Shown here: in pieces, positions 7,959 through 63,281 of the stretch
How the letters are laid out: every line of letters begins with the position of its first letter
Position numbering within the stretch: position 1 is the stretch's first letter
Source of the DNA: Callorhinchus milii
Taxonomy: Eukaryota
DNA: 64,000 nt
Direction of reading: 5' to 3'
Assembly (NCBI RefSeq): GCF_018977255.1
Contig: NW_024704742.1
Location: 20,710,001-20,774,000 of the forward strand
Translations under genes and position numbers: made by a program
Notes under the pieces: model-generated
The model's database searches: none
What the model saw: the letters and a program-made list of their open reading frames with translations, nothing else
Told to the model about the DNA's origin: nothing

Positions 7959-8030
7959 CAACAACAACAACAACAAGATTCCATTTATAAAGCGCCTTTC
8001 ACGTCAGGAGGACGTCCCAAGGCGCTGAAA
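7957..8030 (-). mobile_element. Very short young L2 3' tail
   Basis: Essentially identical to 19863-19934. Confidence 0.9.
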
Positions 8031-8210
8031 CAGGACCCAAGTGGCCCAGGGTTCAGATTGCCTAACAATGACCTAAAGTCCCACCCTCCCATTCCCTGAG
8101 AAATGAACTGAAGATGGTGACAAATTTGTTAAATAAAATATACGGTTGGATCAAATAAGATTATCTCCACTGATCCTGACCAAGCTGTAGGGAAGCGTAC
8201 TGAAACTAAC

Positions 8211-11196: not shown

Positions 11197-11274
11197 AAGT
11201 ATTGTAGGCCACTATACCACTAGGCCACTGAGTCAGCTTGATGTGAAGATACTTACTGCATGAAAGCAATGATT

Positions 11275-11591
11275 TGGAGTCCTGTCGCTCAGTGGTTAGA
11301 GTACTCACCTCGCAAGCGAAAGACCTGGGTTTGATTCTCAGCAGGGCGAAACATTGGGCAAGTTTCCTTACTCCACACGCCTGATAATAATCCCTCAAGA
11401 AAAAAAACAATAATAAATTGGTCACTTCAATCCACGACTGTTTGTGGGACACTGCTGTGTGCAATTGGCTGCCGCATTTTGCCCACAAATATACAGTCAA
11501 TTCACTTCACAGTATATTCTGTGAAGCGCTTTGAGATGTCTAGAAGACGTGAAAAGTGCTATATCAAAATGCAAGGATTATTATTATTATT
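11275..11591 (+). mobile_element. tRNA-Ala-derived SINE, short form
   Basis: A box TCGCTCAGTGG, B-box-like GGTTTGATTC, L2-like stem-loop tail, (TTA)n. Confidence 0.9.
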
Positions 11592-11740: not shown

Positions 11741-12061
11741 TTAATAATAATAATCCTTGTATTTGATATAGCGCTTTTCACGTCGGGAGGACGTCCCAAA
11801 GCGCTTCACAGAACACACTGTAAAGTGAATTGACTGTATATTTGTGGGCGAACGTGGCAGCCGATTGCACACAGCAATGTCCCACAAACAGTCGTAGATT
11901 GAAAATGACCAATTTATTATTGTTTTTGGTTTTGGAGGGATTATTATTAGGCTCTGTGTGGAGTAAGGAAACTTGCCCAAGGTTTCGCCCTCTGCCTGGA
12001 ATTGAACTCAGGTCTCTCACTTTCAAAGTGAGTGCTCTAACCACTGAGCTACAGGACTCCA
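11741..12061 (-). mobile_element. tRNA-Ala-derived SINE, young short form
   Basis: Near-identical to 38571-38888. Confidence 0.95.
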
Positions 12062-12142
12062 AGTTCTTTAATTATGATATCTAATATGATATTTTGTTCT
12101 GCCTAACAAAAACTATATGTGTCAAAGCCTCAGCTTAGCCCA

Positions 12143-18640: not shown

Positions 18641-20260
18641 TCAGCCTGACACATGCGGAAACCCATCACCATAGTTAAGAGTAACCAAACCAAGCTGAGA
18701 TTTCCATGTATCCCACCTACACATGGAAATTCCAGAGATAGACTGTTGGACTGGAAAGCACACTCTCTCCCTGGACAGATGGATGTTCATTACCTAATTC
18801 CAGAAAATATTAGGCGCAGGTTGGCAAGTGCCAAGGTTTGGGGACCCCAGTGTGCGTTGATGTACTGCTCGAGTTAACTTCCACATGTATGCGGATGACA
18901 CCCAACTCTACCTTTCCTCCTCTACTCTCAACTCCACGACCACCGATGTCCTGACAGCCTGCCTGTCTGACATCGAGTCTTGGACGAGAGACAACTTTCT
19001 TCAGCTCAACGTGCGAAAAACCGAGGCCCTCCTGATTGGCTCACGTCAGCGCCTCCGCACCTCAGGCGCCGACACCATCAGCATCCAAGGCTGCACTCTC
19101 CACCTCTCAAAGCCAGTCAGGAACCTCGGCGTTTTGTTCGACCCTGAGCTGTCCTTTCTCCCTCACATCCGCACCACAACTGGCACCGCCTTCCATCACC
19201 TCCGGAACATCGCCAGACTACGGCACTACCTCACCCCTCACGCTGCTGAAACCCTGGTCCACGCCTTTGTCATCTCAAGGCTGGACTATGGGAACTCTCT
19301 CCTCGCCGGCCTTCCCGCCACCTCCCTCCACAAGCTGCAGGTCATTCAGAACTCTGCAGCTCGTGTACTGTCCCGCACCAGGCTTCGGGACCACATCACT
19401 CCCACCCTCGCTCGCCTCCACTGGCTCCCCATCCCCCAGAGGATCGATTTCAAGATCCTCATCCTCACCTATAAGGCCATTCACGGCCTTGCTCCCTCCT
19501 ACCTCTCTGACCTACTATCCCCCTACCTACCTGCCCGTACCCTCCGTTCCTCCGGCTCCGGTCTGCTCCACGTCCCCCGCCCCAATCGCCCTACCATCGG
19601 TGGTCGGGCCTTCAGCCTCTCAGCCCCCAGGCTCTGGAACTCCATCCCCTAGTGCCTTCGCCGCTTCCTCCCTCTCCTCCTTCAAGGCTGGTCTCAAAAC
19701 CTTTCTCTTTGACCGAGCCTTCAGCTCCCCTCTCGACTCTCTTCCCCCTCCTCGCTCCCTCCCTTCCCTCCCCTCACCCTGACCATTTCCCCCCTCCTCG
19801 CTCCCTCCCTTCCCTCCCCTCACCCTAACCATTTCCCCCTGCTCGGGTCCTGACCCAACTGTGCAGCGCCTTGGGACGTCCTCCTGACGTGAAAGGCGCT
19901 TTATAAATGGAATCTTGTTGTTGTTGTTGTTGTTGGAGTCTAACCAGCTAAAACCGCATAGCTTGCATTGATATTGCTGTCTGGCGGGTTTTTCTCGCTG
20001 CTTGTCCAGCCAGGAGCACCCTACCTGTTGGCTTGCAGGGTTAACAGGAGCTGAGTTGGATGACTCCCTGCCACCAGTGGTTAGTCTGCCCTTCGAGGTC
20101 CTATCAATGGGCCAAGCTGAGTGGTCTGTCATCAGCAGTACCCTGGAATACTGTGGGCCCGCCTGGCTCAGGAACCAAACTACAGAGGGCTGGCTCTTGG
20201 AGCCAGTTCAGGGGGTGGAAACCATCTGGTTACAAGAGACCTCAGAAAAAAAAACTTTAA
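18638..20260 (+). repeat. Family X, copy 3, split by a young L2
   Basis: 5' half at 18638-18873 and 3' half from 19936; the unbroken junction is seen in the copy at 1-392. Confidence 0.75.
18871..19935 (+). mobile_element. Young L2 3' fragment with a 255-aa open RT C-terminal region
   Basis: ORF 18885-19652: YADD, NFLQLN..KTE, VRNLGVLFD, SRLDYGNSLL, LHWLPI, LWNS. The TAG at 19650 is CAG in the copy at ~43040. CpGs retained. Confidence 0.97.
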
Positions 20261-38922: not shown

Positions 38923-39295
38923 GCACCTTATCACATCATCGAGACTTCTCAAGTGCTTTGTGTAAGGTGGTTTGACTGGGTATTTTGTGGGCAAAAAGTT
39001 GGAACCAATTTGTGCACAGCAATGTCCAACATATAGACATACAGTGAATGACCAATTTTATTTAGGGCATTGTTGGCCAAGAGACAAGGAGAAACTCCCT
39101 TCTCTTTTAAAATAGTGCCACGGGATCTTTAACATCCACCTGAACAGGCAGACAGGGACCTCAATTGAATGTCTCGTCTGAAGGACGAAACCTCCAACAG
39201 TGCAAAGGATCCCTAGCAATACATTGGAGTTTCAGCTTAGACGATTTGATTCCAAGTCTCTATGTGGGGCTTGAACCCACAACCTTCTGACTCAG
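38915..39295 (-). mobile_element. Deu-like SINE
   Basis: GTCAGAAGGTTGTGGGTTCAAGCCCCAC head; CCTGTTCAGGTGGATGTTAAAGATCCC core. Confidence 0.85.
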
Positions 39296-40632: not shown

Positions 40633-42610
40633 GTAAAAAATCCACTTCAGGAAAAGTAGATTCAATGAATTTCAGTTCCACCTATGCACCAGCTGAAAAC
40701 ATAAATTGTACAATAGGATGGTTTTGTTGAGATTGCTTGAGTCGTATAAAAGTATTCTTATTTGCATAAAAAAAAATGCAGCCTATTTGAGGTAGAAAGG
40801 TGATATGAAGAAAATCAAAACATTAGTGATTTGTAATGAATAATATTTTGTACGTTTTCGATTCTTTCAAGAACAAATTAGATAGATTTTTGTTAAGAAA
40901 TAATATCTTGGGGTCCATATATAGTTTAGTGCACAACATGTGCATGCAACTGCCAGGATGGTGTAAGGATGGTGTCTCTTGGCCAACAATGCCCTAAATA
41001 AAATTGGATGCACATTGGTCTTTTTTTGCCGAGTAAATGCTTATATTCTTATATTCTTACTATAGACGGCTGTAAGAACATATTAAAATAGTAACCCTCT
41101 GAGACAGGAGATGTGATAAGGCGCAAAATCAAATACAAGGATTATTTATTTATTGTAATATATTCCCCTAGTTCCATCTCCTCCATTTGCAACAGTGGCT
41201 TCTCAGGGTGATAAGTGGGGGATACCTAGTCTCTCAGTGTTAACTACAGAGGAAGATTACATAAGGTAGAAGTGGGCCTTTATGTAGGCAAAGCCTGCTA
41301 CAGTGAAAGATCTTTTCAACTAAGAATAAGGTCAGCTTTATAGTGACTGTAGACTGACAGTTGTAACAATACATTAGCAATGACAATAAACAGGAGCTCT
41401 GAATGCTAGACTGATGTCTTTCCATTAGAGCAAAACCACTTTGCTATCAATTATTACTGTTTTCAATATACACAACTGAACATTTGGGTCATCCAAGTTG
41501 CTCCTCTCAATTATCAAAGCAGACACATCAGTCTGCTTGGGTTTATAACCTCTATCCATGCAGAGAGATTTTCTGATCTGTACAGCCTGAGGTAAGTCTC
41601 TGAAGAGATCGTTTATTTTCATGGGTTCAGAAGGTTCCCTTTCCGTTCTAATTTAGTTGACTTCATTGTCATACCAAGATTTTGCCAGACTTATTGTCAT
41701 GCCTGATGTACGCGTATTTGACTCATAACAATTGCCGTCTTGTGCATTCTTATTTGTCTACTTTATAGCAATTTATGTTGTTATAATGCACATAAATCAG
41801 ATAAATGTTTAGTGCATGTTTGCATACAGATCTGGCTGGGGATATGAACAGCTTTATGTTTCAATTATATTTGTTATTCATGACTTGTTTGTTGATATAT
41901 ATTATTGGATCACTAAATTTGCATATGACAGGTTAATATAACAGAGTCAGCTCACAATGACTAAAAACTAAAACTGATTTTGACTTGACAATTGAGCATA
42001 ATTGCTCTTTACCTGGTGGACCCCAGTGCAAACTTGGTATTCACCTTTATTCATTAGAAGGAAACTATAGCAAATTTGGGGATGTTGTAATGAGATCTAT
42101 CAATTTAAAAAAGATAATTGCCAATAACCTCCAAAATTACTTCTTTTGAGGTATTGTGTGTAACTAAAGTAATTATTGGACCTAAAATGCAATATATACA
42201 AATGGCATTGATTGTCCTTTTTGCACATCACAATTTGCAAATTCTAATTTGCGAATGTTACATTGGAAAAATCATAATTGTCATGAATATCTTGCCAGCA
42301 ATATCTGGAAAAAATGCTGACGAGCAAAACACCAAAAGGAAAGTAATCCTATTAATCCTTGCACTTAGTATAGTGCCTTTCATATCAGGACGATGTCTCA
42401 AAGCACTTCATAGGATAATTGTAGACTATATTTATTGTGGGATACAGTGGGATTTACTGGGTTTCTTGGAACAAGAGTCCTATGATTTTCAAGGAAATTT
42501 TCACTTGCCTGGATGTAATACAAATCACCCAGAAATACACAATCACTATACTTTACAATAAATCTCATGAAGCACTTGAAATGTTTTGATAGCATGATTA
42601 GACGCTATAT

Positions 42611-48147: not shown

Positions 48148-48619
48148 GCATTTTGCCCGGATTAACAGGATTTTTGTCCGAATCAACCGGCATATTTAAA
48201 ACAGGTAGGAATACAAATGAATTGGGGCCGGGCATTCTAATAATAATAATGATAAATAATGATAAATTCTTGGATTTGATATAGCGCCTGATCACGTTGT
48301 TGAGAAATCTCAAAGCACTTCACAATTTATATTGTAAAGTAGTTGACCGTATATTTTGTGGGTGAAACGCGGCAACCAATTGCGCACAGCAGTGTCCTAC
48401 AAACAACAACAACAAGGTTATGTTTGTATAGCCCCTTTCACGTCAGGAGGACATCCCAAGGCGCTGGACAGTGTACAGCATTTCAGTCGTGGATTGAGTC
48501 ACGATTTTTTTTTGAGGGAGTATAACCCCCGGAAAGTGATCTGCCCATCAACTACAATTATTCAATTTACCCGGGGTATGGGATTAACCGGCACCTGGCT
48601 AAAACGGACTCCACAGTAC
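48148..48619. mobile_element. Possible Tigger/pogo-type MITE remnant hosting a SINE
   Basis: GGATTAAC motifs on both sides of the SINE; right end AAACGGACTCCACAG-TA resembles a CAGT-type TIR plus TA. Confidence 0.4.
48239..48554 (-). mobile_element. Long-form SINE with a nested L2 tail (~48403-48483)
   Basis: The SINE breaks at GTGTCCTACAA and resumes at CAGTCGTGGATTGA. Confidence 0.85.
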
Positions 48620-57332: not shown

Positions 57333-58167
57333 CTAAAAAGAATCTTAAAAGTAAAAGCTTAAAAGTAAAAAGCAACTTGAGTGGCGCGATATTAAAAATC
57401 GATTTAAACAACAATTTGTATTTATATAGCGCCTCTCACATTGGATAGCATCCCAGAGCGCGTCTTTCCTCACTCTATTAAAAACAAATATTCCCATTTA
57501 GAAAGGTCTGGAGACAAAAAAAAGGACAGATTATTTCTTAGCTACAGTTCCTGCATGCTCCTTACTAGTCACCGGCAATGATAAATGATTGTATATTCAT
57601 AAAAACATAGCAGGTCTAAAGGTCACCAAGTTTGAAAATAGACAAGAAGCTTAAACTTTATAATTTTGAATGAAGATAGCTGAGAGTGAACTGCATTGAA
57701 TTTTATGAAATTTTGTGGGTGCAAAATACAGCATGTGATGTGATAATTATTACAATGTAGGAGATATCCTAGTCTGTAACCACTGCGAGATGCAGGGAGT
57801 GGGCAGGGAATCTTCTCTCCTCCAACTTTGTTCAAATGATTTTGCCCACAAGCTAGTCGCTCCAGCTATTGATTAACCGGCTGACATGTTAAATTCTATA
57901 TCAATTTGGAAATGCTTTTCTTTTTAAGAACTGTGGAAAAACAGTTTCCAAGCTCAAACGGAATATAGGAGTTTTCTGCAATCTACAAACCTTTAATTTG
58001 AAGGTAAGAAGGTCACACTGGCAAAGACTGAACGGAAAATTCACACCTTGTGTTTACTCCAGGAACACGAAATGCTACAACCTGTATTTTAACAATCTAC
58101 ATCATTCCAAAACCTCCATACAGAAGATCCAGGCACCATTTCTGCTACTTGCGGAATTGTGACTCAC

Positions 58168-58200
58168 CGTGTCTCTGCCTGAAGCTTTGCCAATTCTATG
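58168..58200 (-). other. Candidate 33-nt internal exon
   Basis: Acceptor TGTATTTTCATCCTCAG and donor ACG|GTGAGT. Confidence 0.4.
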
Positions 58201-58594
58201 CTGAGGATGAAATACAGAGTAGGTCTCAGTAGCCACAAGGTCAATTTCATATTACAACCATCCTTGCTGGAGTTGGTTTCACTCACTCTGTGACATGTGC
58301 CACTTACAAAATGAAAAGGAAAGGACGTTATGAATGGTAATCAATCTCATTCTGATCAGCATGTCAACCAACTTTTCACAATGGTACTTAAGGCTGCTGC
58401 AGGCACTATAATATCAATTCCAATGTACATAGACAGTGCTCTGGTCAGGCCATGCCTGGTATGCAGAGTACTGCATGGAGTTCTGGTCACCGCAACGTAA
58501 GGGAACTGCAACAGGCCCTTGAGGCAGTGTAGAGGAAACCAGTAAGGATGATCCCCATTGTTAGAGCAATAGAAAAGTGCCTTCTCTGCTACAA

Positions 58595-58831
58595 ACGGCT
58601 TCCTCCGCAACATACGCACTACAAACCCCCCCTTTGTTACAAATCTGTACGCACAGTGTCCTAGGCCCCCCGGGCCTCGGTTTGCTCGATGCTGCTACTG
58701 TGGGTGGAGCGTCTCCGATACCACCGACGCAGAGCAGGGATTGTTGGAATCATGGAAGCGCCGTGAGCGGGAAATCGACTTCGCCTGGCGTCCAGCCTAA
58801 ACTGAGCTCCTGTGGCGAATTCTTGGTAAGT
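58595..58831 (+). promoter_or_regulatory. CpG-rich patch; candidate promoter/first exon
   Basis: About 18 CpGs in ~230 bp in a CpG-poor background; ends at TTG|GTAAGT (58825/58826). Confidence 0.5.
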
Positions 58832-58950
58832 GTTGTACTATTCAAGTTAATATTTTTTAGTATTTTGAACATAACTATGTCTTCAGAAAATATATGCCTA
58901 TAGTTCTAAGATGGGTTGTTTAACAAAATGCATCTTTGAACAGCCCCAAT

Positions 58951-59040
58951 CAACCCTCCGCAATTTTCTGCAAAATTCACCAAATCCCTCCGCAATTTTC
59001 TGCAAAATTTGTCAAACACCCAGCAATTTTTGGCAAAAAT
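58951..59040 (+). repeat. ~32-bp tandem repeat, three copies
   Basis: CCCTCCGCAATTTTCTGCAAAATT twice plus a diverged third unit. Confidence 0.85.
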
Positions 59041-59189
59041 CTTTACAGGACCTACTTGCTATGTTTCACTAAGTTTTATGAGTCACTAGGTTTCTTGGGC
59101 CCAGTTTTGAGTTTGGCAAGTATTCTGTGAGTCTCCTCAGCCAGACCAATTAACTATGAATACGGCACTAGGCAAAATTCTTTGCATTT

Positions 59190-61600
59190 AATAGGAACCT
59201 GCAGCTCGTGTCTCTCCCGTAGCAAGCTCTGTGAAACGATTACTCCCATCTTCGCCCAACTCCACTGTCTTCCCAAAACTCAGAAGATTGGGTTTAAAAT
59301 CCTTGTCCTCATTCTTAAAGACCCAACAACAACAACAAGATTACATTTGTATAGCACCTTTCACTTCGGGAGGACGTCCCAGGGCTGACCCACCCCCCAC
59401 CCATCCCGCCCTATATTCCTTCGACTCCATCTCTCCCTCTTCCCTCACCACGACTGTCCGCAAACTCAAACGCACCACCTGCTCCCTCAATCCCATCCCC
59501 ACCTCTCTCCTCACATCCCCACTCCACCTTCTGGCTCCTCTCCTGTCCAACGTAATCAATCTCTCCTTGTCCACCGGTTCAGTTCCCACCCGCCTAAAAA
59601 CAGCCGTCATCACCCCCATCTAAAAAAACCTTCCCTGGACCCATCCCTTCTCTCCAGCTACCGCCCCATCTCTAACCTCCCATTCCTCTCCAAGGTCCTG
59701 GAATGAGTCGTCGCGTCCCAGTTCCGCTCCTTTCTTTCTCGCCATTCCCTCTTTGAACCCCTCCAATCCGGCTTCCACACTGCCCACAGCACGGAAACAG
59801 CCCTGGTCAAAGTCACTAATGACATTCTGAACAACTGTGATCAAGATTCCCTCTGCCTCCTTGACCTCCTCAGCCTCTCTCCCGCCTTCGACACTGTCGA
59901 CCACTCCATCCTCATACTTTGCCTCTCCTCTTTAATTAATCTTCACGGACCTGCCCTTGCCTGGTTCGTTTCCTATCTAACTCACCATCTCCACTTTGTT
60001 GCCTCTAATGGTCTCTCCTCCAGCCCCTGCACTGTCATGTCTGGCATCCCCCAGGGCTCTGTCCTTGGCCCTCTCCTCTTTAATATCTACATGCTCCCCC
60101 TTGGTGACATCATCTGCAGACATGGTGTCAACTTCCATATGTATGCAGATGACACCCAACTCTATCTTTCTGCCTCCACCCTCAACTCCAGGACCACTGC
60201 TGTCCTGACAGACTGTCTGTCGGACATCAAGTCCTGGATGAGGGCAAGTTTCCTACAGTTGAATGTAAACAAGACTGAGGCCCTCCTGATTGGCTCGGGC
60301 CAGCGCCTCTGCACCTCAGGCTCTGGCAACATCAACCTCCATGGTCACACACTATAACTCACCGCCAGTCAGGAACCTAGGTGTCTTGTTTGACCCTCAA
60401 CTGTCTTTTCTTCCCCACATCCAAGCCATGACCTGCTCTGCCTTCCCTCACCTCCGTAACATCACCCGACTCCGCCACTACCTCACCCCTCAGGCCACTG
60501 AAACTCTTGTTCATGCCTTCATCACCTCCAGACTTGACTATTCAAACGCCCTCCTTGTCGGCCTTCCCAACTCCTCCCTCCACAGACTACAGATAATCCA
60601 GAACTCTGCAGCCCGTGTTCTCTCCCGCACCAAACTCAGTGACCCCATCTCCCCCATTCTTGCCCGACTCCATTGGCTCCCTATCCTTCAGAGAATCCAG
60701 TTTAGGATCCTGGTCCTCACCTACAAAGCTCTCCATGGCCTCGCCCCACCCTACCTCTGCAACCTCCTAACCCCCTACCAACCTACCCGCTCCCTCCGCT
60801 AAAACTGGCTCTGGCCTGCTCCACGTCCCATGATCCACCTGCCCCACCATTGGCTGGAGAGTCTTCAGCCACTCTGCCCTCAACCTCTGGAATTGCATCA
60901 CCCAGTCACTCCGCCTCACCCCCTCCTTGGCCTTCTTCAAGTCCTGCCCCAAGACTCCAGTCTTCGACCATGCCATCAGCCACCCCCCTTCCCCTCCCCT
61001 CCCTTCACGCCCCCTGACCCCAGCTTAGGTCTGAAATGCTATACTCTGTTCAGCGCCTTGGGACGTCCTCCTGACGTGAAAGGCATTATACAAATGTAAT
61101 CTTGTTGTTGTCATGAGGGAGAAGTGATGTGGGGGTGGCTGTGGACGGGGCAGATGTAGCTGAATGTAACCCCTCGATTTTGGATTCGAGGAAGTCCAGC
61201 ATCTCCTCACAGTTGGAGTTTGAGGAGAGAATGGGTAAGGCATGGAAGGGTGGACGGAGGAGACGGTTTGTGGTGGAAAAGAGAAGCCTGGGGTTGTCCT
61301 TTGCCTCCAAGATAACCTTGCTCCTCCCTACCTCTGCAACCTATTAAAATCATACCAACCTGTCCGCTCCCTCTACTCAGCAGGCACTAGTCTGCTTCAT
61401 GTCCCCCCGCCCTGTTTGCCCCACCATTGGCAGTTGGGTCCTCAGCTTTTCTGCCCCACTCTCACCTCACCCCCTCCCTTGCCGCCTTCAATATTGTCTC
61501 AATACTTTAATCTTTGATTGGGCTTTTGGCTACCATTCTGGTCCTCCCCCCACCTCGCACTACCCTCCACACGTCTTGATTCAAATCCACAGCTCGGGTG
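59190..61600 (+). mobile_element. Old L2 fragment (59190-59323 plus ~61311-61600) split by a younger L2
   Basis: ITPIFAQLHCLP..KIGFKILVLILK continues as NLAPPYLCNLL after the insert. Confidence 0.75.
59324..61313. mobile_element. ~2-kb L2 (RT domain) with an internal 1.7-kb inversion and two tails
   Basis: Plus strand 59386-61110: SYRPISNLPFLSKVLE, QSGFHTAHSTETAL, AFDTVDH, GIPQGSVLGPLLF, YADD and tail. Minus strand 61113-61313: NPRLLFSTTNRLL. Second tail on the minus strand at 59324-59385. Confidence 0.92.
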
Positions 61601-62854: not shown

Positions 62855-63281
62855 CCATAATAATCCTTACATTCAGTAGAGCACCTTTCACATTCAGAGG
62901 ACGTTTTAAGGCTATTCAGAGGATAAGCACAGAACAGTAAACACAGCACACAACAATGTCCCATAAGCAGCCAGGATGTGAATTGACCAATTTTATTTGG
63001 GGGATTGTTGCCTTGGACACCAGAAGAAATTCCCGACGTGAAAAGCACTATACAAATGTAATCTTGTTATTGTTGTTGCTATAGGATCTTTAAAGTCCAC
63101 CTGAACAAGGCAGATTAAAATCTATTTACTATCTCATCTAAAAGATGAAACTCCAGCACACCCCCAACCTTCCATTGGAGTGTCAGCCTGGACTATACGA
63201 GTTCAAATTTCCTATGCGGAGCTTGAAACCACACACTACTGACTCTGAAACGAGTGTGCGACCAATTGAGCCAGGCTGACA
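62855..63281 (-). mobile_element. Deu-like SINE with a nested plus-strand L2 tail (~63032-63080)
   Basis: Head TGTCAGCCTGGCTCAATTGG; core GTTCAGGTGGACTTTAAAGATCC. Confidence 0.75.

What the first reader, a model, noticed from the sequence alone, without database searches (positions are those of the whole stretch)
59324..61313. 1.7-kb inversion inside an L2, bounded by two inverted L2 tails
Seen: piece A (61313-61110, minus; ..PTSLLPHD) joins in frame to piece B (from 59386, plus; DPPPTHPALYSF..RT..tail), yet they face opposite ways. TGAC occurs at both breakpoints (59386-59389 and as GTCA at 61110-61113), and a second ~60-bp tail sits inverted at 59324-59385. Inference: a short tail inserted antisense into a minus-strand L2 with a TGAC duplication, then recombination between the two tails flipped B. 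This model reproduces the observed order. Tiny LINE tails would thus act as inversion substrates, and the segment may be polymorphic. The whole unit is nested in an older L2.
Basis: partly seen in the sequence, partly recalled or inferred. Interest (0 to 1): 0.7.

Follow-up and report, generated by a model that had tools for sequence, protein, structure and literature searches.

The report
Small inversion between two L2 tails
A dead jumping gene (an L2-type LINE) in a chimaera-like fish genome has its last 1.7 kb flipped between two back-to-back copies of its own 60-base tail, a kind of repeat-driven inversion well known for human Alu and L1 elements and seen here as one old case in a different LINE family.

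Summary
The structure is in the sequence as described. Piece A (61313-61110, minus) and piece B (from 59386, plus) are one L2 ORF2 broken at TGAC: two database relatives run through the junction with no gap. Two tails, 89% alike over 57 nt, bound B, and the unit splits an older L2 in register. A's end runs straight into a (CAA)n tail, as at a reverse-transcription priming site. So a second L2 tail most likely went in antisense at TGAC and exchanged with the resident tail. TGAC is a weak target-duplication marker, because its bases also match the tails. The arms differ at 6 of 57 sites and the element has drifted about 2-6% from its family, so the event is probably old and fixed, not polymorphic. 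The reads shown did not bridge the inner junctions. The class is known (Alu/L1 recombination-mediated and L1 insertion-linked inversions). My searches found no L2-tail case in print and no matching scan note, only related by-products elsewhere in this genome.

The parts
59195..59323 (+). Older L2 fragment, left half (end of ORF2); target of the younger unit
   Evidence: 72% identical to 60601-60719 of B and to other L2 copies; register checked
59324..59385 (-). Left tail (62 nt): conserved L2 3' end with four TTG repeats, joined to the older L2 at its 3' end and to the start of B at its 5' end
   Evidence: inverted arm I1; aligned with other tails
59329..59353 (-). Longest stretch identical between the two arms (25 nt), left copy; likeliest exchange interval
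   Evidence: left coordinates derived from its offsets; that the exchange lies here is inference
59386..59389 (+). TGAC at the start of B; candidate target duplication, of which TGA may be microhomology with the tail
59386..61054 (+). Piece B, the inverted core: ORF2 linker, reverse transcriptase (59707-60354), C-terminal part and 3' UTR, with stops and frameshifts
   Evidence: RVT_1 E 2.4e-23; tblastn with P0002-P0006; indels near 59620 and 60803 against the family
61055..61111 (+). Right tail, continuous and in register with B's 3' UTR, and running straight out of A's 3' end on the minus strand
61110..61113 (+). GTCA (TGAC on the minus strand) at the end of A; GT also fits the tail's TTG repeat
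61110..61313 (-). Piece A: 5'-truncated start of the same L2 (68 codons, between endonuclease and RT), still in the original orientation
61312..61560 (+). Older L2 fragment, right half (end of ORF2 and start of 3' UTR); its first 2 nt overlap the 5' end of A
   Evidence: 61316-61456 is 72% identical to 60739-60879; register

Best explanation
Step 1 (shown): a 5'-truncated L2 (A-B-tail) inserted on the minus strand into an older plus-strand L2. Step 2 (inferred, well supported): L2 machinery cut this element at TGAC and used A's free 3' end, whose last two bases pair with the tail repeat, to reverse-transcribe a second L2 tail in antisense. That copy was cut short at about 62 nt and joined to the start of B through 3 nt of microhomology. 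Step 3 (inferred): the new tail and the resident tail, inverted and 1.7 kb apart, exchanged strands, probably in their 3' halves, and B flipped. The left arm is then foreign at its 5' part and the right arm is B's own at its 5' part. Whether step 3 came long after step 2 or while the insertion was still unligated cannot be read from the end state. The product is dead sequence with no function shown, probably some tens of millions of years old and fixed.
For: A and B are contiguous without a gap in P0005 and P0006, so the break was made in an existing A-B duplex. The right arm ends exactly in the TTG repeat with no flank copied and shares 2 nt with A's end; about 80% of zebrafish L2 3' junctions and about 50% of 5' junctions have microhomology (PMC2666801, passages). 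At two linked sites the right arm is T/C and the left C/T; among 12 other TTG-ended tails 0 of 7 with T at the first site have T at the second, against 4 of 5 with C (Fisher p 0.010, or 0.048 with four young copies counted once). The one other window tail with B's UTR variant (48406) has the right arm's state at the first site. No private change is shared by the arms. Solo tails exist in the window. Known repeat-mediated inversions are of this size and use this little identity: median 1452 bp (PMC2603318, section 7); median junction identity 17 bp, Alu pairs about 82% alike (PMC9675761, passages); the arms here share 25 nt. L1 cDNA intermediates recombine on 50 bp, and with each other on 25 bp, of homology (PMC13526784, passages).
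Against: Both diagnostic sites are CpG transitions, which recur, and the link of B's UTR to a tail type rests on one copy. Six differences in 57 nt are also compatible with two once-identical copies if each has drifted 4-5.5% (P 0.31-0.60; P 0.03 at 2%). TGAC can be explained wholly by microhomology. No intermediate allele (tail inserted, B not flipped) and no contig bridging an inner junction is among the rows shown. No crossover point could be fixed, because the parental tails are unknown.
Confidence: 0.55

Rival explanations
1. One-step end remodelling during the second insertion. The cut at TGAC left two ends. A's end was extended by reverse transcriptase into a new tail. B's end was resected and folded back, its 3' end pairing with the TGA just upstream of the resident tail, which regenerated that tail as the left arm. 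The new cDNA then joined the flipped B in register by homology. The left arm is the resident tail and the right arm the new one.
For: This geometry is described for human L1: inversion on the reciprocal end, with 4-15 bp overlaps resembling target duplications and microhomology at the inversion junction (bioRxiv 10.1101/2024.12.14.628481, section 9). It explains the 3-nt match at the left junction; one other window tail (31433) has the same 2-nt loss as the left arm, which makes the match more likely real.
Against: In the experimental L1 clone of that section (its Figure 4B) the cDNA end joins the inverted piece with 0 bp of homology, whereas here UTR and tail run on in register. The one informative copy (48406) links B's UTR to the right arm's state.
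Confidence: 0.22
2. Staggered breaks with no second retrotransposition: breaks around TGAC and around the last 62 nt of the resident tail, filled in and rejoined, duplicated both in inverted orientation.
For: It gives the same order. The mechanism is documented in Drosophila, with duplications as short as 46 bp (PMC1885836, passages). The arm divergence is compatible with it if the inversion followed the insertion closely. Both arms have the same 3' half, shared in the window only with the tail at 63073.
Against: The duplicated piece stops inside the TTG repeat with no flank copied, which would be a coincidence; the arms share no private change and differ at two linked sites.
Confidence: 0.12
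3. Assembly artefact: the real locus has the short tail inserted antisense at TGAC but B unflipped, and the assembler turned B over between the arms.
For: No piece shown bridges 59385/59386 or 61109/61110.
Against: The arms share only 25 identical nt, far shorter than any read; the window has no N; both flanks are present at single-locus depth in runs X14 and X16 with few differences.
Confidence: 0.04
4. A single aberrant insertion (twin priming or template switching on one RNA), or two unrelated L2 pieces that happen to abut.
For: Twin priming makes most human inversions under 2 kb (bioRxiv 10.1101/2021.12.20.472354, start of abstract in a search listing). The arms and the body look of similar age.
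Against: Twin priming inverts the 5' part and leaves one tail (established knowledge); here the 5' part is upright, the 3' part is inverted and there are two tails. Unrelated pieces would not meet at the same codon.
Confidence: 0.04

Closest known systems
Retrotransposon recombination-mediated inversions (RRMI; Lee et al. 2008, PMC2603318) and inversions among transposable element-mediated rearrangements (Balachandran et al. 2022, PMC9675761)
   Same: Two same-class elements in opposite orientation bound the inverted piece; target duplications end up swapped; size about 1-2 kb; short identical stretch at the exchange.
   Different: Those cases use Alu (about 300 bp) or L1 in primates and have an outgroup or second allele as proof. 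Here the repeats are about 60-nt L2 tails, one nested in the other's body, and no ancestral state could be seen.
L1 insertions with inversion of the reciprocal end (bioRxiv 10.1101/2024.12.14.628481) and L1-bridged reciprocal inversions (Zumalave et al., bioRxiv 10.1101/2024.08.27.596794)
   Same: A tail primed at one end of the cut, a short overlap between the two ends of the cut, and a local inversion of about a kilobase.
   Different: Those are somatic or cultured-cell L1 events. Here the element is L2, the event is inherited, and the tail joins the inverted piece in register by homology.
Staggered-break inversions of Drosophila (Ranz et al. 2007, PMC1885836)
   Same: Inverted duplications at both breakpoints.
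   Different: There the duplicated pieces are mostly unique sequence with arbitrary ends; here the long duplicate is exactly a LINE 3' end.
L2 LINEs of Callorhinchus milii (for example L2-2_CM, partner of CmiSINEs; Luchetti et al. 2017, PMC5499810)
   Same: Closest proteins are C. milii RT proteins, and a window copy is 133 of 133 residues identical to one; the tail core is shared with ATT-ended SINE-like copies in the window.
   Different: I had no consensus library, so the named subfamily was not assigned.

Membership tests
L2-clade LINE (A+B) | Non-LTR reverse transcriptase domain | tested here: met
   RVT_1, E 2.4e-23; 72-79% identical to C. milii RT proteins
L2-clade LINE (A+B) | 3' end in a short tandem repeat rather than poly(A) | tested here: met
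   (TTG)n in both arms and in other copies
L2-clade LINE (A+B) | Stem-loop just before the repeat | tested here: inconclusive
   A hairpin forms in the predicted fold, but z = -0.78 against shuffles; this copy has decayed
L2-clade LINE (A+B) | Placement in the L2 clade by RT phylogeny or repeat library; endonuclease domain | not tested
   No tree built and no repeat library held; the copy is truncated downstream of the endonuclease (A starts near residue 240 of P0004). The label L2 rests on recalled features and PMC5499810.
Repeat recombination-mediated inversion (RRMI / TEMR-HR) | Same-class elements in opposite orientation at both breakpoints | tested here: met
Repeat recombination-mediated inversion (RRMI / TEMR-HR) | Target duplications no longer flank one element | tested here: inconclusive
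   TGAC and GTCA sit beside different arms as predicted, but all four bases can be microhomology
Repeat recombination-mediated inversion (RRMI / TEMR-HR) | Both breakpoint elements are chimeric | tested here: inconclusive
   Arms differ at two linked sites but are identical over the last 25 nt, so no switch is visible
Repeat recombination-mediated inversion (RRMI / TEMR-HR) | Pre-inversion state seen in an outgroup or another allele | tested here: inconclusive
   X5 and X9 (other organisms) showed no locus-specific piece among the rows listed; tables cut short
LINE insertion with reciprocal-end inversion | Tail primed at one end of the cut, with a short overlap between the two ends | tested here: met
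   A runs into (CAA)n with 2 nt shared; 4-nt overlap of A and B
LINE insertion with reciprocal-end inversion | cDNA end joined to the inverted piece without homology (as in the experimental clone described) | tested here: not met
   UTR and tail continue in register; compare
LINE insertion with reciprocal-end inversion | Insertion and inversion arise together | not testable with these tools
   End state only
Twin-priming 5' inversion | 5' part inverted, 3' part upright, one tail | tested here: not met
   5' part upright, 3' part inverted, two tails
Staggered-break inversion | Inverted duplicates descend from one resident sequence | tested here: inconclusive
   No shared private change; divergence alone does not exclude it

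The most novel reading that the evidence does not exclude
The conserved 60-nt 3' end that L2 subfamilies and their SINEs share acts as a genome-wide exchange handle: an L2 cDNA still being made pairs with a nearby resident tail and flips the DNA between them in the germ line. With a tail about every 3 kb (22 hits in 64 kb), this would be a regular source of kilobase inversions in L2-rich vertebrate genomes, the inherited L2 counterpart of what has been described for L1 in tumours.
Probability: 0.15. Interest if true: 0.55.

Novelty: new member of a known kind. Interest (0 to 1): 0.25.

Why it matters
As a single locus it matters little: dead repeat sequence rearranged inside dead repeat sequence, with no gene effect shown. 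Its value is as a clean record, because the ORF gives the ancestral order to the base. It suggests that about 60 nt of LINE tail can be enough for an inversion in a non-mammalian germ line. If a genome-wide search found many such swapped-target structures, L2 tails would join Alu and L1 as a source of small inversions, a class that a recent 600-species survey set aside as under 0.2% of calls and hard to detect (PMC13320814, passages).

Tried and rejected
No whole genome is held for this window, so no genome-wide count of similar structures and no subfamily consensus could be made. Reads: 4 of 23 listed runs were laid (X14, X16, X5, X9) at 90% likeness; paralogous contigs swamped the tables (32 pieces shown and 241,877 not; 15 joints shown and 1,239 not). 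None of the shown pieces bridges an inner junction and none of the shown joints gives the unflipped order, which is no evidence either way. X16 record 9 runs from 58000 to 59341, only 18 nt into the left arm, under the tool's 31-nt rule and in a stretch common to both orientations. The 59307-to-61317 joint in X5 and X9 has 27 nt on its short side and different letters between, so I took it as a paralogue that confirms the old L2's register, not as an orthologous empty site. The small shares of runs X1-X13 were not used. The tail fold was not significant. A crude exon scan gave no convincing host gene around the locus. Twin priming and chance abutment were rejected on geometry. Literature: searches showed no L2-tail inversion in their listings; most subscription papers are outside the library, and I opened no supplements (tables of RRMI and TEMR loci could hold an L2 case). 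Scan notes: nothing by sequence, by words or nearby.

Full report
Observation. An inverted repeat of 57 nt and 89% complementarity has arms at 59329-59385 and 61055-61111. TGAC lies at 59386-59389 and GTCA at 61110-61113. A (61313-61110, minus) is 68 open codons, and B holds a reverse transcriptase domain. The window has no N.

A and B are one element. A search with A among longer proteins returned 5 hits of 1490 candidates, all named C. milii RT proteins. P0005 matches A at 28 of 31 residues up to its D31 and B's start at 30 of 36 from residue 33 in a frame shifted by one base; P0006 runs PHD-SPATHP against the window's PHD + PPPTHP. P0002-P0004 belong to a younger family (59-68% to A and to B's start) and give the same order. 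A window copy at 18873-19271 is identical to P0002 over 133 residues, so the organism is C. milii or very close. The label L2 rests on the RT, the (TTG)n end and PMC5499810 (passages); I built no tree.

Nesting. The flanks 59195-59311 and 61316-61456 match consecutive parts of B's own ORF2 end at 72%. Read by codon, the two halves meet with about 0-3 nt lost and no clear duplication. So the unit went in on the minus strand, A and the left arm are in the original orientation, and B is the piece that turned.

The junctions. On the minus strand A runs directly into the (CAA)n repeat of the right arm, and its last two bases are in register with the repeat. On the left, B's TGA matches what the tail family has just upstream of the arm if 2 nt are dropped; 1 other tail among the 18 compared has the same loss. 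Both features are usual for L2 insertions: about 80% of zebrafish ZfL2-2 copies have 3' and about 50% have 5' microhomology, with short duplications or short losses at the target (PMC2666801, passages). They favour reverse transcription primed at A's end, but they also mean that TGAC is not independent proof of a duplication.

The two arms. They differ at 6 sites plus the 2-nt loss and are identical over the last 25 nt. Against the majority of 18 other tails each arm has three changes of its own; the two states they share also occur in other tails. Two sites are linked across copies: among 12 TTG-ended tails (I left out 6 SINE-like or ATT-ended ones), 0 of 7 with T at the first have T at the second, against 4 of 5 with C (p 0.010; 0.048 with four young copies collapsed). 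The right arm is of the first kind and the left of the second. The only other tail with B's UTR variant, at 48406, has the right arm's state at the first site. It is weak: both sites are CpG transitions, and 6 differences are expected anyway if identical copies each drifted 4-5.5%.

Age. In one search, 30 of the 40 rows shown are near-fixed differences from the family inside A and B (1.6% of 1928 nt, a floor), and X14 has 125 variable places over the whole stretch (6.3% of 1990 nt, a ceiling). At the rate of 1.0-1.1 x 10^-3 per site per million years used in PMC5499810 that is very roughly 15-60 million years. The locus-specific flank differs from X14 and X16 by 5 letters in about 1300. An event of this age is most likely fixed (inference).

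Reads. Four runs of the same organism hold 59-71% of the sampled words. I laid two of them and two of other organisms. Flanks are covered at single-locus depth in X14 and X16, but paralogues swamped the repeat, the tables were cut, and no shown piece bridges an inner junction. Reality against misassembly therefore rests on argument: 25 identical nt cannot mislead an assembler working with longer reads.

Mechanism. Four routes give the same order. (1) Antisense tail insertion plus exchange with the resident tail, later or during insertion (0.55). (2) One-step fold-back of B's end with the cDNA joined in register (0.22); the geometry is described for L1 (bioRxiv 10.1101/2024.12.14.628481, passages and section 9), and L1 cDNA recombines on 25-50 bp of homology (PMC13526784, passages). 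(3) Staggered breaks (0.12; PMC1885836, passages). (4) Misassembly of the unflipped intermediate (0.04). Routes 1 and 2 agree that a second tail was primed at TGAC and that tail homology turned B; together they hold about three quarters of my belief.

Comparison. Inversions between inverted Alu or L1 pairs with swapped target duplications are known: 49 human-chimpanzee cases, median 1452 bp (PMC2603318, passages and section 7). Fifteen more among 493 rearrangements had junction identity of a median 17 bp for the homologous class (PMC9675761, passages). L1-bridged reciprocal inversions occur in tumours (bioRxiv 10.1101/2024.08.27.596794, passages and section 9). What differs here is the clade (L2), the small size of the repeat and the nesting of one partner in the other. 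My eight searches listed no L2-tail case, but the library lacks most subscription papers and I read no supplements. Scan notes from this genome describe other by-products of L2 and SINE insertion, including an inverted host copy, but not this structure (unchecked).

Generality. Tails are dense (22 hits in 64 kb) and 2 of 5 plus-strand tails have an opposite tail within 2 kb, one of them this pair, yet none of the 10 other L2 ORF2 loci hit in the window changes strand. One case cannot show a class.

Verdict. A real, neatly readable inversion in dead repeat DNA; a new member of a known kind; interest 0.25.

Noticed in passing
window 39052-39086 and 40973-41007: A perfect 35-nt inverted pair 1.9 kb apart; could be transposon ends or another small inversion with duplicated ends.
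   Followed up: no
window 11274-11589 and 11742-12062: Inverted pair of SINE-like repeats, 86% over 323 nt, only 153 nt apart.
   Followed up: no
window 18873-19924; tails ending 7967, 24305, 42765: A young L2 family: 133 of 133 residues identical to P0002, with four near-identical tails in the window.
   Followed up: partly
window about 7960-8060 (minus), 63031-63078 (plus), 48400-48490 (minus): Solo L2 tails of about 100 nt or less; the first has the same 7 nt on both sides, like a target duplication.
   Followed up: partly
window 58168-58200 (minus): A possible 33-nt micro-exon with good splice signals, 1.1 kb from the inversion; no host gene identified.
   Followed up: no
window 59385 (5' end of the left arm): The left arm stops at the base of the predicted tail stem, which is also where subfamily UTRs begin to diverge; unexplained, may be chance.
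   Followed up: no
window 58049, 58081, 61539, 61835: Single-base differences and a 1-nt insertion between the window and runs X14 or X16 in the flanks.
   Followed up: no
window 58954-59047: Three tandem copies of a 31-32-nt unit just left of the older L2.
   Followed up: no
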